64,000 bases of DNA from Amoebophrya sp. A120. Its lineage: Eukaryota > Protista > Dinoflagellata. The position numbers and the translations under genes were made by a program. The notes beneath the pieces are model-generated. The model ran no database searches. It was not told the DNA's origin and was given only the letters and a program-made list of their open reading frames with translations. Positions 161 to 62,974 of this stretch are shown in pieces; within the stretch, counting starts at the first letter, position 1; every line of letters begins with the position of its first letter. The stretch covers positions 8,333,738 through 8,397,737 of the forward strand of contig CAJINV010000003.1 of the NCBI GenBank assembly GCA_905178155.1, read 5' to 3'.

Positions 161-535
161 ATGCTCGGCGCGTCCAGAAGTTCGTCTTCGTCCTTCCTGA
201 TCAAGAAGCCAGGCAGCGACGAAGTGATTACTGCCGAGCTGTATCAAAAGTAAAAATATCTGGGTCTGGAAGAATGCAAGATTTGTCATGCATATTTCTC
301 ATGACCCATGATGCCTGTGGCTGTGCTGCATGCCCTAGCATCACAATTTTTTTGAGGGATTCTTGATGCCCATTCCGCATGACAAATGCCCTCTTCGCGT
401 AGCAAAAATTAGACCCTGTTTGCTGCTCATGCAACACAATTTTTTTAGTCATCGAAACGCAGCATCACAAGTTGCATTCTTCCAGACCCAGACATTTTTG
501 CATTTGATGAGCTGAAAGACAAGTTGATACTATGA
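161..535 (+). CDS. 3' end of a hypothetical protein gene (5' part uncertain or outside the window), interrupted by insert 242-508
   Basis: Removing 242-514 gives the in-frame reading ...FLIKKPGSDEVITAEL|KDKLIL* with TGA at 533-535; no recognisable domain. Confidence 0.45.
242..508. mobile_element. Introner-like non-canonical intron, family A
   Basis: Left end TATCAAAAGTAAAAATATCTGGGTCTGGAAGAATGCAA is inverted with right end TTGCATTCTTCCAGACCCAGACATTTTTGCATTTGAT; direct repeat GAGCTG at 236-241 and 509-514. Confidence 0.85.
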
Positions 536-953
536 CAGAAACACCCCCCCCAGCGAACCGACGTCGACTCTCGTGCCCGCCGGGGGACAACCAGGATTGT
601 CCTAGTAAAGAGATGCGTGGCGTGTTTCGGAGATGAGAAAACAGGCTCAATAAAGGGATACGCAGGGAGGTATATGCATGCGTGCAGCAACACTGTATTT
701 TTGCCTGGTTCCATCATTAAGGTATAGGTAACATTTTAGGTCTGCGCAGCACCTCAGAAGCTTTGTTTTCGCCGATTTGTAGCTACTAAGATAGAAGGAC
801 GGAACTATTAGCGCAGATATGCAGTCGCCTAATGCGATGTTGAGATAGATTCGCGCACGTATGCTGCAGAAGCACCAAGACATCAGCGGCGAGAGTGCGG
901 TTTAATAATCGAGGGTTTGAGTTGCATAGCGAAATGACAAGCTAGCTCTGGAG

Positions 954-2710
954 ATGGAGGACGATGACTACGATGACGGCCTTGATTTTCTGCTGAAATC
1001 AAAGAAAAAATCGATCAAGGAGATATGGCTTGCTCATATGTTGCAATCTCAAGCGTTGCAATAGAGTCTGGAATTTGTCCTGCATCGGCAGTATGAGTAC
1101 CATACCGAGACTTGGGCTTTTCGCAGTGCAAATTTAGCCAGAATCGCATGGGATTTGGAGCTCGTTGCAGATCGTGCAACGCGACAGCTTCCAGACTCTA
1201 TTGTAACGTTTTACGTTGTAACCTCTGAGCGGGTTATAGGCGAAATTCATGAAGGAGAAGGAACAGAAGAATGAGAAGACGAAGAAAGACAAAAAGGGGA
1301 AGCATGGTACATTATTGGATGCCTGCCGCGTGCGAGTAGTTGGTTTCACTAATAGTAATATCAGTTTTGAAGATCAGTACTAAACAGGAGAGACCATTAT
1401 ACGGCAGAGCTCCGTGATGGAGCTTTGTGTTTAAAAATGTTGAGGTGACTGATCAGGGCGACGCCACAGTTCTTGTATAGATGTTGAGTTGACTCACGAA
1501 ATGAGTGAACACGCCTACGCCACCATCAATCCTTAAAAAGCAAAAACGCGGGCTGACCGAGCGGGGCTGATATTTCCGGTGGGACGGATACACACCCTGC
1601 TGAAGAACAAGGTTCCGGCTCAAGCACGGGTCGGAGGAACTGCGGCAGTGTTTTATCAATGTGAGTAAATATCCCTCCGCCATACTGCGACCTGATCTGT
1701 GTGGCACGATATCCGCACATCTCAGCTAAAGCTTAAGCCTCTTGACGGAGGCATCAATGCCTAGCTGCTTGACATAAGAACAGGAGCGTTTTCATCTGTT
1801 GATTGAACAATCTTAGAGACCAGCCATATTCATATAGCGCCCTCGCTACCATTTTTTTTGTGTGCGCAAATCACATCAATCAGCAACACAAATTTATTGC
1901 TCTTTGAGTATGGGGCGAGGGGACTTTTCCTCACAATATGTTTCAGGCCGCTGTCATGGAATATATGATGGCGGAATTGCTGGAGCTCTCTGGTAAGTTT
2001 TATCGCGGCCGGACTTGTCGTTGTCGCTTACTTATACTTGGTTTTGATCGCAAAGTCTTCGCCGCCACCACAACGATAGTACTGAAGTAGAAGGCCTCAA
2101 ATTTTCAGAATCCTCTTCATAATGTGAAATAACAAGAAGGCACAAAAGTCGACCATGCCAAAATGTTGAACTCGATACACATACATCTCCCTTATATGTC
2201 ACACCAGGCAACCATGCGAAACAAGCCAAGAAGAAGGACCGAGCACGCATTACGCCACAATTTCTGACTAAGGCCATCAAAACCGACAAGGAGTTTGACG
2301 AGTACTAGGATCTCTTACAACTAATTTTATTTTGCGAATTCTCCTCGTCCTCCTTGCATGATGTTGAAGGAAACACCAACTTCATAGTGAATCCAGGAGC
2401 CGAATCTTCACTATGTATGAAAGACTAAATCAGATTGCTGTCTCGCGCTATGCTTTCCGGAGGAGGCGTGATCCCGAAATCTGACAAAGATCTGAAGGAC
2501 ATCTACGGCGGGAAGAAGGGTGCTGCGGGTGCCAAATCAGGAATGAAAATGCCAGCGTCTGAGGAAAACAGTAAGGCGATGGGGGGCACCTTCCTGCCAG
2601 GGGCGCCCGCGGAACTCCCCGGTGGCGCAGTCGCGGGGGTAGACATGCTCGGCAGCGTGACCACAATTGGAGGCGTAGCTTCTGTGGGGCAGATGGGACC
2701 GGTTTCTTGA
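954..2710 (+). CDS. H2A: Divergent histone H2A (H2A.Z-like) with N- and C-terminal extensions; inferred exons ~954-1023, 1244-1306, 1541-1653, 1944-1992, 2208-2301, 2434-2710
   Basis: Spliced product reads [20 protein letters not shown]...[30 protein letters not shown]...[33 protein letters not shown], collinear with the H2A histone fold; three GT-AG introns (1307-1540, 1993-2207, 2302-2433) and two TIR/DR introns; true start uncertain. Confidence 0.88.
1024..1238. mobile_element. Introner-like non-canonical intron in H2A
   Basis: Inverted repeat core CGTTGCAATAGAGTCTGGAA / TTCCAGACTCTATTGTAACG; TAT...ATA ends; flanks GGAGA / GGCGA; removal joins SIKE|KFMKEK in frame. Confidence 0.75.
1654..1938. 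mobile_element. Introner-like non-canonical intron in the H2A histone fold, family C
   Basis: Perfect DR TGTTT at 1649-1653 and 1939-1943; ~30-bp imperfect TIR (TGTGAGTAAATATCCCTCCGCCATACT vs AGTATGGGGCGAGGGGACTTTTCCTCACA); removal restores [11 protein letters not shown]. Confidence 0.88.
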
Positions 2711-60180: not shown

Positions 60181-62524
60181 CGGGATGCTTGTACATCATG
60201 TTGCAAGAGGACAAATGTGTGTGTGTCTCCTCGGTCTGAAAGTTTATTTGTTGTCATGATAATGGCTGAGGGTGAGTGCTGCTGCTGACCAAGACCAGGT
60301 AATACTGTTGACTGCAACACGCAGCCAGCCATTACATTTTTTTTTTAATTTACAGTTTTTTTTAAAATTCACTACCTAGTATTATTTCATGCTCTCATTG
60401 AGATTGACATGGACTTCGACTTACTGATATACTAGGAATACTACCTGTAGTACCTTCTAGCATTGCTGGACGCCCGCCTTTCATTGCACTCGGTATTGAA
60501 TAAGCTGAAACATTTTCATGGTGCGGCATGTAACTGCTCTCATGGAGTAGATGCTCCTGGGCGCAAAGGTGAGCCTGATTTTCAAATGCGTGCTGTGGTG
60601 AAAGGATCTGTATTGTATAATTGAAGAAAAAATAAATGAACCGTCGGAAAGATGAACATCAGAATGAACAGGCTCAGGCATCAACACAAACACTGTCCCT
60701 CTCTAGCCGTTTACCGTCCCTGACTCCTATTGCTTGTGTGGTCTGAAGATAGATGAAGATTCTTCCGAACTGCCCTGAGCAGATCAAATGCTGTTCTGCA
60801 ACGCACTAGAAAGTGACTCTCCCTCTCTTTTTCTTTGTATGTAGATGTAGTGAGGTCATATTTCTATTTTGTATTTGTACTTCTTGGAGTTCTTGGAGGA
60901 AGATGTTGAAGCGGAGCACCAAGTGTCAAAGGTGGCTTTTTTGCAAAACTTCTGAAGCTTTCACTAGATCTGACACTATAATCTTCATTCAAAGTTTCGC
61001 CAGTCAAATCGATGAAAGATCAGCTGCATAATCACAGAAATGACTGTGCTGTTGTTGGACGACGTGCATGTGGATCAACGATGACTTTGATGAAGTCATG
61101 CTGTGTAAAGCTAACAAGTAAGGTCTTTTCAGCTTTTTCGTTTTTCCGTTCGGGTTCACTCCTGTTGGTGTCTGCTTCCCGATGTTATGCGCTGCAAGAT
61201 ACTGTATGGCGCAGCAAGTTGTTTTGTTGGTTGCCAAGAAAATCCGCTGGGCGACCAATCTTGGGGCAGCGATTGTCATCTTTTTGCACCATGTTGCTCC
61301 TTATTTTCCTCGTTCACCTGGCGCACAGCACCAAAGAGGGGTAACGGCGATCCCTCTGGCCGCATACGGTCAAGCCGTGAACAGGAAGACCTTGACCAAA
61401 GCGGAATATCTTGCGTTGGTGCGTGATCTACGCGATACATGCAGCAAACGCCCTACAGAGGTGCTTCGTCCGTACCAAAAGCAAATCATCTGTCGGGGTA
61501 TTCTGCAAAGACGGACCCCATTGGGTGTGCAAGCTTTTCCATGATGAGAAAATTCTCTTATGTACGGCGTAAACGCGTCACAATTTTTGGATTGCTTGTT
61601 GCAACTTTTTCATAAGTGTTTCGCTTGAGAAACTGTAACTGAGTTATCACAGCATGCAAAAAATAAGACCGGCTGAATTTCTTTATCCAAAATTTGCAGG
61701 ACACAACCACCCAAATGCATTTGTAGTGCATACTCCGCCTGTTCGAGCGACGAAAGTTGCGTCGGTGCTGGATATATCAACTAGCACAGCTGCTCCGTTC
61801 GGGTCTGCAAACCTGTGATGCTTTCCATCGACGTGATACAACAACCATCTGACATAGGATACTACGCTTCACGTTTTCCGGTCAGATAGCACGATTGAAT
61901 TTGCGAATATGAACGCGCTCTCTTCTCGTCATGCCGATGCGCATGAAAAACTGCATTCTTCTTGCATGACGAAGAAATATTAAGCGCTGTTTTGTTCCTT
62001 TTAGTGAAATTTATGGCTGTAGTTCAGCCTGGCTCTCCCTCGGCCCTGCTTCCGAGGCATGCAAGAACAGCACAAGGGCGGATCGATCATGTGCTTGACT
62101 CCGTCATCAATCTATCGTTTTCAGACCTAGAGCGACGGATATTTGCAGTTGATAGAATGCCCTGTTCGACTACCACGGAAGCGACCGCGGCTCCGTCCAC
62201 CACAAGTACGGGGCTGTGTATGATTCCGTGTTTGGATATCCAGCACAAAAGTTGCGTCTGCGTATACCGTACACGTACACAGAAAACATGAAAAATAACT
62301 CATCTACGAAACCGTAAAGATTTTGAGTCCTTACTTTTGTTAAGGTGAGCGTTGGATAACGCAGTCGCAATTCCAGCGCTGTCAGTGTATGACTCTCTCT
62401 CTCTGCTGATTATATGATGCTACTATGGTTCATCGCATTTGTTTTTGCACCCTGCCTTGGCAGCTACTACAGTGCCGAAGAAGGTTGCGCTAAATATATG
62501 TTTTTGCCGGGGGTTGTTCGGTAG

Positions 62525-62974
62525 GTTTGCCATGAATGTCGGGCGTATGCTGTGCAAAAGTTGTATCGCATTCGTACTTCTACTTGCAATCATGCGTGGC
62601 GAGTCGTGTGACACATGCCAGTCTTAGACGAAAGCCGCGGCTCAAAAATCTGTTTTAAGAACTTCATTCTTCATTGCAAACTCATCTACAAGTGCGATAT
62701 ATTTTGCAATGTATAGGGCAGAAGCGTTGCGAGGTGCGAAACGTATTGGAGATTGGGATCGGGAGCGTTGGTGCGCGGACTCCAGGTAGCATGGCCGAGT
62801 ACCGCGACACGAAGGACGCCCGATACCGCCCGGGCCCCAGCCTGCGCGTCTGGCGAGACTTTTTTCCTTTCGCCCACATAGTGGGCTGGGACATAGACGC
62901 CGACGCGGTGCGCCAGGCGCAAGAAGCCGCGCGCGAAGATGAAGAGGAGGACAGCCCGTCTTCGAGGCGACCTG
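62525..62974 (+). CDS. Internal exons of a class I SAM-dependent methyltransferase (gene probably spans ~61000 to beyond 63400)
   Basis: VLEIGIGS...GPSLRVWRDFFPFAHIVGWDID, as in MycE/Methyltransf_24-like enzymes; in-frame join across 62546-62720. Confidence 0.75.
62546..62715. mobile_element. Introner-like non-canonical intron, family B
   Basis: TATGCTGTGCAAAAGTTGTATCGCA / TGCGATATATTTTGCAATGTATA; flanks GGGCG / GGGCA. Confidence 0.85.

What the first reader, a model, noticed from the sequence alone, without database searches (positions are those of the whole stretch)
242..62715. Transposon-like inserts with 5-bp direct repeats act as introns, mostly without GT-AG ends
Seen: about 18 inserts with TA...TA-type inverted ends. 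Most are flanked by a 5-bp direct repeat, and many sit within or beside essential motifs (H2A helix 2, RING CxxC, oxygenase HxD, protease flap, EF-hand loop). In the exon-interrupting cases, removing the insert plus one repeat copy restores the frame. Of the cases I checked, only 4609-4870 clearly allows exact removal as GT-AG. Ordinary GT-AG introns occur in the same genes. Established: IR/DR-bounded non-canonical introners have been reported in Amoebophrya, and their excision mechanism is unresolved. Inference: two intron-recognition systems operate on the same pre-mRNAs.
Basis: partly seen in the sequence, partly recalled or inferred. Interest (0 to 1): 0.8.

Follow-up and report, generated by a model that had tools for sequence, protein, structure and literature searches.

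The report
Amoebophrya introners cut at one offset
Twenty-nine small transposon-like inserts interrupt the genes in this window and match an intron class already published for the plankton parasite Amoebophrya; assembled contigs that are likely RNA lack them cleanly without normal GT-AG ends, and every junction that can be placed fits a cut one base before and four bases after the insert, a testable clue to how they are likely spliced.

Summary
I count 29 inverted-repeat inserts. Of these, 18 have a 5-bp direct repeat with at most one mismatch, and only 4609-4870 can be removed exactly as GT-AG. They match the introner elements published for Amoebophrya A120 (PMC7789003), so the class is already known.

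RNA-type contigs lack 15 of the 29 (12 seen directly, 3 by arithmetic), and the same contigs also skip GT-AG introns. Nearby in-frame GT-AG pairs exist for 6 of 13 checked and are not used.

The added detail is the cut position. All 9 informative junctions share one register: the intron starts 1 nt before TAT and ends 4 nt after the 3' arm. A tandem pair fits the same rule through a 2-nt micro-exon. All nine top A120 classes in the paper's Table S4 have T at intron +2, as this rule predicts.

Whether one relaxed spliceosome or a second machinery does the cutting is untested. My hairpin and branch-point tests gave no support to either ruler. Earlier agents of this scan reported the same 1+4 register on other DNA of this genome.

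The parts
242..509 (+). TAT-type element, perfect 5-bp repeat; host frame not established; not RNA-assessable
1024..1238 (+). TAT-type element in the H2A-like gene, repeat with 1 mismatch; predicted intron 1023-1242
   Evidence: RNA arithmetic compatible but ambiguous
1654..1938 (+). element in H2A helix 2 (label recalled), perfect repeat; predicted intron 1653-1942
   Evidence: depth arithmetic on X1 record 1 fits exact removal, not the nearby GT-AG
4613..4869 (+). element, perfect repeat; the only one whose exact removal can be placed as GT-AG (4609-4870)
   Evidence: no RNA cover shown
8851..9001 (+). element, perfect repeat, in a 1,048-aa reading frame
   Evidence: no RNA cover shown
14476..14789 (+). 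element in the K-channel gene, 1 mismatch; skipped (14473->14793); registers -2 to 0 allowed
15347..15556 (+). element, perfect repeat; skipped (15341->15557)
17708..18201 (+). element in an EF-hand-like loop (label recalled), repeat decayed; skipped by record arithmetic; registers -1 or 0
18635..18843 (+). element, perfect repeat; skipped by record arithmetic
21071..21221 (+). element inside the RING CxxC region, perfect repeat; not RNA-tested
22388..23245 (+). 858-bp element with long TTAGGG-type inverted ends and perfect 5-bp repeat; removal restores the frame; not RNA-tested
23594..23878 (+). element, 1 mismatch, found by frame logic; not RNA-tested
23913..24226 (+). element, 2 mismatches; not RNA-tested
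25907..26345 (+). element, decayed repeat, found by frame logic; not RNA-tested
30376..30552 (+). element, decayed repeat; not RNA-tested
37353..37691 (+). element before the protease flap, 1 mismatch; not RNA-tested
37901..38182 (+). element in the aspartyl protease gene, perfect repeat; 92-93% identical copies in L020, L062, L069
39631..39837 (+). element, decayed repeat; not RNA-tested
40314..40908 (+). 595-bp element before the last protease exon, 1 mismatch; not RNA-tested
45132..45498 (+). element with no repeat left; intron 45131-45502, single possible placement, -1/+4, AT..CC
45776..46219 (+). element, 2 mismatches; skipped in 4 of 4 runs; registers -2 or -1
47237..47543 (+). element beside the oxygenase HxD motif, perfect repeat; skipped (47231->47544) in X2
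53766..54194 (+). GT-AG intron 53765-54198 with weak inverted ends at the same -1/+4 geometry
54570..55057 (+). element with no repeat left; intron 54569-55061, single placement, -1/+4, GT..TC; an in-frame AG 3 nt upstream of the cut is not used
   Evidence: 4 of 4 runs
55498..55640 (+). element, 2 mismatches; skipped in 4 of 4 runs
55716..56040 (+). element, 1 mismatch; skipped in 4 of 4 runs; registers -1 or 0
61473..61732 (+). element in the methyltransferase-like gene (label recalled); skipped in X4
61775..62154 (+). element, 2 mismatches; skipped in X4; registers -3 to -1
62237..62538 (+). first element of a tandem pair (3' arm inferred)
   Evidence: joint 62233->62716; two-step model
62543..62544 (+). 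inferred 2-nt micro-exon between the tandem elements
62546..62715 (+). second element of the tandem pair, 1 mismatch at repeat position 5

Best explanation
These are non-autonomous DNA-transposon-type introners with 5-bp target duplications; contigs that are likely RNA lack them exactly, at junctions that all fit a cut 1 nt before the left TAT and 4 nt after the right arm, and the cutting is likely done by one relaxed U2-type spliceosome that reads the inverted ends in place of GT-AG. Shown: the anatomy; exact removal; a single common register; unused nearby GT-AG pairs; both orientations in every family. Inferred: insertion by a transposase acting in trans. Inferred: the left arm acts as a donor mimic (N-U-A-Y; +1 free, +2 U kept). 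Inferred: the 3' cut is set by distance from the right arm rather than by AG. Because 1 + 4 equals the 5-bp duplication, each insertion would be neutral in either orientation, and the duplication is then free to decay.
For:: all 9 non-GT-AG joints among the 13 listed fall on elements, and 10 of 10 catalogued elements in 44001-64000 are skipped.: -1/+4 is the only placement common to all 9 informative simple junctions; 45132 and 54570 fix it alone; the composite joint is reproduced by two removals at registers -3, -2 or -1 and by none of the other three; 6 of 13 have an in-frame GT-AG alternative within 12 nt that is not used. T at intron +2 in 260 of 260 oriented elements, against 5 changes at its pairing partner (two-sided p 0.06). 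(Table S4 of PMC7789003): 9 of 9 top A120 classes start N-T and 9 of 9 top A25 classes start TT. Table S6 lists U1-70K, U1A, U1C, U2AF and PRP8 homologues, and section 10 reports all but 6 of 89 spliceosomal proteins; 9 of 9 families of 5 or more copies occur in both orientations. Precedent for a spliceosome handling non-GT-AG introners: Fritillaria (PMC13326754 abstract and section 30; PMC11282704 section 6).
Against: No lariat, branch point or snRNA pairing was observed; spliceosome involvement is inferred. [quoted passage not shown] First and last intron bases take many combinations, which the normal first-last base contact does not allow (recalled chemistry). What sets the 3' ruler is unexplained. 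A at -7 as branch point: 3 exceptions against 8 at its partner in 260, p 0.23, not supported. Hairpin: G.U against A.C mismatches 28 to 27, and arms not predicted to pair in 10 of 30. The +2 T excess is only p 0.06, and 3 of 260 lack A at +3. A DNA-only register test did not favour -1/+4 (1 stop in 16, against 0 for two other registers). RNA evidence is contigs from one study, two samples, labelled 'RNA?', and contigs hide minor isoforms.
Confidence: 0.5

Rival explanations
1. A second machinery recognises the paired inverted ends, cuts 1 nt 5' and 4 nt 3' of the stem and ligates the exons, as proposed for euglenid nonconventional introns.
For: Fixed asymmetric offsets around a stem; no G at +1 and no AG needed. 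Arms are predicted to pair in register in 15 of 30. Euglenid introns have a stem at +4..6 / -8..-6 and leave as circles (PMC11282704 section 6). U1 snRNA was not detected.
Against: No sense-strand excess of G.U over A.C (28 to 27 in 14-nt arms; 57 to 40, p 0.10, in gapped 30-nt arms). Six RNA-skipped elements have arms not predicted to pair in register. T at +2 in both strains, despite different repeats, looks like a spliceosomal donor. No such enzyme is known here.
Confidence: 0.35
2. Removal is exact but the cut slides within the direct repeat, with no fixed register; the shared offset is an accident of few cases.
For: PMC7789003 calls the splice sites variable relative to the hairpin (Fig. 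3 legend; Fig. S23 legend: 1-5 nt). Only 2 junctions fix the register alone. The DNA-only test was inconclusive.
Against: All 9 informative junctions include -1/+4; by hand about 1.4e-4 if registers were uniform and independent. Two elements are cut exactly with no repeat left. Table S4's N-T starts agree.
Confidence: 0.07
3. The inserts are removed by ordinary GT-AG splicing at nearby sites, or are removed from the DNA, or are assembly artefacts.
For: In-frame GT-AG pairs lie within 12 nt for 6 of 13. Runs X1-X4 are only guessed to be RNA.
Against: None of those six pairs is used in the contigs. The contigs that skip elements also skip GT-AG introns (X2 record 5; X1 record 4). DNA-like run X5 holds elements 1024, 1654 and 17708 inside unbroken contigs of depth 41-43, like their neighbours (its joint table was cut).
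Confidence: 0.03

Closest known systems
Introner elements (IEs) among the non-canonical introns of Amoebophrya sp. A120 (Farhat et al. 2021, PMC7789003; abstract, sections 10, 11, 12, 16, 32, 36 and supplement text read; figures not held)
   Same: Inverted ends start TAT, then about seven variable bases, then a run of A. Direct repeats of 3-5 nt, a few hundred bases long, many families, mixed with GT-AG introns in the same genes, RNA-supported, no transposase.
   Different: The paper leaves the border position unknown or variable. Here every informative junction fits -1/+4, removal persists after the repeat has decayed, and adjacent AGs are skipped.
Euglenid nonconventional introns (review PMC11282704, section 6 read)
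   Same: Terminal inverted repeats, TSD-like repeats at the junctions, non-GT-AG ends, stem set back from the cuts with a longer 3' overhang, coexistence with spliceosomal introns.
   Different: Offsets are 3 and 5 nt around a CAG/CTG stem, and circular excision products are shown there. Here the offsets are 1 and 4 around TAT/ATA, and the product is unknown.
Non-canonical introns of Fritillaria borealis (PMC13326754: abstract and section 30 read)
   Same: Transposon-derived, TIR/TSD-bounded non-GT-AG introns; removed by a modified spliceosome.
   Different: Preferred AG-AC and AG-AT ends, duplicated U2AF and U1 present there. Here the ends are N-T at 5' and any dinucleotide at 3', and U1 snRNA was not detected.
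Introners that co-opt splice sites from the TSD (PMC9860276, passages read)
   Same: MITE-like elements with TIR and TSD that create introns without changing mRNA length.
   Different: Those carry or recruit GY/AG. Here only 11 of 260 related elements and 1 of 29 in the window can be placed as GT-AG.

Membership tests
Amoebophrya A120 introner elements | Terminal inverted repeat starting TAT, about 7 variable nt, then three or more A | tested here: met
   position counts for 24 window elements and 260 related elements
Amoebophrya A120 introner elements | 3-5 nt direct repeat at the exon/intron borders | tested here: met
   18 of 29 with at most one mismatch; 11 decayed
Amoebophrya A120 introner elements | Absent from transcripts with non-GT-AG ends | tested here: met
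   15 of 29 have RNA-type support; 14 not assessed; contigs only
Amoebophrya A120 introner elements | Repeated in families | tested here: met
   242/4613 are 68% alike; copies up to 93% identical in other loci; 35 families among 260
Amoebophrya A120 introner elements | Window comes from strain A120 itself | not testable with these tools
   no genome handle; inferred from the repeat grammar; earlier scan notes say A120, unchecked
U2-type spliceosomal intron | GT/GC-AG ends | tested here: not met
   1 of 29 placeable
U2-type spliceosomal intron | Branch-point A and lariat product | tested here: inconclusive
   A at -7 in 29 of 29 window and 257 of 260 related elements, no significant strand asymmetry; no strand-biased branch motif; lariats not testable
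Euglenid-type nonconventional intron | Selected RNA stem joining the ends | tested here: inconclusive
   15 of 30 predicted to pair; no G.U excess
Euglenid-type nonconventional intron | CAG/CTG stem at +4..6 / -8..-6 | tested here: not met
   TAT at +2..4, ATA at -7..-5
Euglenid-type nonconventional intron | Circular excision product | not testable with these tools
   no raw reads of this strain
MITE (non-autonomous TIR DNA transposon) | TIR, constant-length TSD of variable sequence, multiple copies | tested here: met
   215 of 260 perfect 5-bp repeats (the scan required at most one mismatch) with near-uniform base composition
MITE (non-autonomous TIR DNA transposon) | Cognate autonomous transposase | not tested
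   no genome available; PMC7789003 found none in A120

The most novel reading that the evidence does not exclude
Amoebophrya has rebuilt its spliceosome to read transposon ends as splice signals. The left TAT serves as a donor with a free first base, and the acceptor is any dinucleotide exactly 4 nt past the right arm. Any such transposon, in either orientation, is then excised without a scar, even leaving 2-nt micro-exons between neighbours. This would be AG-free, ruler-based splicing by a spliceosome lacking a recognisable U1, acting as a genome-wide amnesty for transposons.
Probability: 0.4. Interest if true: 0.85.

Novelty: already known. Interest (0 to 1): 0.5.

Why it matters
The elements are published, but how they are excised is an open question, and the original paper could not place the borders. 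A fixed -1/+4 register gives exact intron ends for tens of thousands of introns. It predicts the 5' end, 3' end and possible branch zone of the excised RNA, and turns 'spliceosome or second machinery' into a direct lariat-versus-circle experiment. It would also fix gene models that GT-AG-based annotation gets wrong. I found the register in none of the passages read from the papers of searches; the figures of PMC7789003 were not visible and may partly show it.

Tried and rejected
1. Whole genome: none held, so U6/U1 and transposase searches were not possible.
No listed holder is on record as RNA.
3. Including DNA-like run X5 swamped the joint table with repeat artefacts (121 joints and 8,049 pieces not shown). 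Elements 242, 1024, 4613 and 8851 could not be assessed, and 20001-44000 (10 elements) was never laid.
4. Branch point at -7: suggested by 29 of 29 window elements, not supported in 260 related elements (p 0.23). A literature search on fixed branch-to-acceptor distance returned nothing.
5. RNA-hairpin selection: no G.U asymmetry.
6. Interior motifs CATGAC and GCATGA are common (213 and 234 of 260) but show no strand bias, so they look like transposon features, not splice signals.
7. DNA-only register test on 16 decayed-repeat candidates: inconclusive, some candidates probably false, 1 stop at -1/+4.
8. Protein search with the RING-gene exon for longer homologues or an annotated model: none (weak evidence).
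9. Rfam: no match in the window.
10. Partner arm of the 3953 element: not resolved; family alignment points to about 4249, which does not restore a long frame.
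Full report
Observation. The window is eukaryotic, about 53% GC, with all modelled genes on the + strand. A scan for inverted arms inside 5-bp direct repeats gave 9 strong hits against 0, 0 and 0 in three block shuffles; a looser cut-off gave 34 against 15-18. Arm profiles, frame logic and RNA joints extended the list to 29 elements: 28 of the TAT...ATA type and one 858-bp element with TTAGGG ends. 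The repeat is perfect in 10, has one mismatch in 8 and is decayed in 11. Only 4609-4870 can be removed exactly as GT-AG. Removing element + 5 nt opens long frames: K-channel gene 1,565 aa over 4 elements, RING gene 1,418 aa over 5, oxygenase gene 2,763 aa over 6 elements and 3 GT-AG introns. Pfam supports protease, oxygenase and channel exons, and RING weakly; H2A and EF-hand labels are recalled motifs without a Pfam hit.

Identity. The arm grammar (TAT, about seven variable bases, a run of A) is the one Farhat et al. give for introner elements of Amoebophrya A120 (PMC7789003 section 11). That paper reports more than 60% non-canonical introns, no detected U1 snRNA, all but 6 of 89 spliceosomal proteins, and borders that 'remain unknown'. 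The strain assignment is my inference; no genome handle exists.

RNA test. Four contig sets guessed to be RNA hold the window. In 44001-64000, 13 joints are listed: 4 GT-AG and 9 others. All 9 fall on elements and together cover 10 of the 10 catalogued there. The same contigs skip GT-AG introns, so they behave as spliced RNA. In 1-20000 the joint table was swamped by the DNA-like run. There, X1's piece table shows exact skips of 14476 and 15347, and its record length fits exact skips of 17708 and 18635 (424 = 424 nt). Its bin depths fit exact removal of the H2A element (model 2.10/2.20/4.46 against observed 2.09/2.2/4.48) and not the nearby in-frame GT-AG pair (2.23/2.08) or retention. Raw RNA runs X7 and X8 did not lay. 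In the DNA-like run X5, elements 1024, 1654 and 17708 lie within unbroken contigs of depth 41-43, against removal from the DNA. In-frame GT-AG alternatives within 12 nt exist for 6 of 13 elements checked and none is used. The clearest is 54570: it starts GT and has an AG right after its 3' arm, yet all four runs cut 3 nt further on.

Register. A perfect repeat hides the cut; a decayed one reveals it. Nine simple junctions are informative (one of them, 17708, by arithmetic). Their allowed placements intersect in one: the intron starts 1 nt before TAT and ends 4 nt after the 3' arm. Two junctions (45132, 54570) allow nothing else. By hand, the chance of all nine including this register under uniform independent cuts is about 1.4e-4. 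The one joint that did not fit (62233->62716, apparent -1/+2) is reproduced exactly by two tandem elements removed at the same register, leaving a 2-nt micro-exon; registers -3, -2 and -1 work, the other three do not. The outer element's 3' arm was chosen after seeing the joint, so this is a fit and not a prediction. A GT-AG intron (53765-54198) has weak inverted ends in the same geometry. The paper's Table S4 agrees genome-wide: all nine predominant A120 classes begin GT, CT, AT or TT, and all nine A25 classes begin TT, where the repeat starts TTA. Aligner preferences may shape that table.

Wider sample. One metagenome pattern scan returned 141 stored loci from one assembly set. I used the 79 longer than 1.5 kb. 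A strand-symmetric finder gave 373 raw hits against 1 in 170 kb of shuffle, and recovered 13 of 28 window elements with no extras. There were 328 unique hits; 260 could be oriented by a codon model and 68 were dropped. Only 11 of 260 can be placed as GT-AG. T at intron +2 holds in 260 of 260, against 5 changes at its partner (p 0.06). A at +3 has 3 exceptions and A at -7 has 3 (against 8 at its partner, p 0.23). All 9 families of five or more copies occur in both orientations, so the signal must lie in the symmetric ends or in unbiased interior motifs. No RNA was laid on these loci.

Mechanism. Shown: exact removal, one register, AG independence, orientation independence. Inferred: a transposase acting in trans makes the 5-bp duplication, and the 1+4 offsets cancel it. 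For the cutter I favour one relaxed U2-type spliceosome (0.5): the register makes the left arm read N-U-A-Y like a donor, +2 U is the best-kept base, the spliceosomal proteins are retained, and Fritillaria gives a precedent. A euglenid-like second machinery remains close (0.35). My tests of the 3' ruler supported neither a branch A at -7 nor a selected hairpin (G.U 28 against A.C 27; arms predicted to pair in 15 of 30 and not in 10 of 30). A DNA-only register test was inconclusive and had one case against.

Novelty. The class is already known, very likely from this very organism. The fixed register was not in the passages I read from searches: PMC7789003 (sections, supplement text), PMC12130899, PMC9860276, PMC12005148 and PMC11453091 (passages), PMC11282704 (section 6) and PMC13326754 (abstract, section 30). 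The figures of PMC7789003 (Fig. 3, S19-S23) were not visible and may bear on this. Roy et al. 2023 was seen only as a citation. I recorded the register before opening the scan's notes; those notes show other agents reached the same 1+4 rule on other pieces of this genome. They are unchecked AI notes and I do not count them as support.

Verdict. Observation confirmed; interpretation partly supported; already known class with a sharper, testable boundary rule. Interest 0.5.

Noticed in passing
window:31744-32050: Near-perfect 307-bp palindrome (153-nt arms, 98%) with TG...CA ends and a perfect 5-bp direct repeat, outside any modelled exon; a fold-back element of another type, with no copy in the fetched loci.
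   Followed up: partly
window:22388-23245: 858-bp element whose ends start TTA plus purines, like the A25 grammar in PMC7789003 rather than the A120 one. It interrupts the RING gene and its removal restores the frame. If spliced at 0/+5 it would also have T at +2 and A at +3. No RNA test; no copy in the fetched loci.
   Followed up: partly
window:32470-35300: GC-rich tandem repeats of 13, 19, 22, 23 and 31-35 nt around a 100-N scaffold gap, followed by a T-rich 13-nt array; possibly a satellite or centromere-like block.
   Followed up: no
window:954-2631: Divergent histone H2A-like gene (label recalled) with a long acidic/basic N-terminal extension and five introns, two of them elements.
   Followed up: partly
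window:3953-4250: Strong left arm of the 242/4613-like type whose right arm appears damaged; the reading frames on either side could not be joined by the rule.
   Followed up: partly
window:1-667 and 4003-4669: RNA-type run X1 shows summed contig depth of 340-490 over members of the commonest element family against 2-7 in flanking bins, so element sequence from many loci is present in that run (retained or excised introns, or DNA).
   Followed up: no
window:42080-43270: GC-rich stretch between genes with no modelled coding role and no match in the fetched loci.
   Followed up: no
window:39842-40312: The aspartyl protease gene ends in a weak ShK-like cysteine domain (E 0.007, below cut-off).
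   Followed up: no
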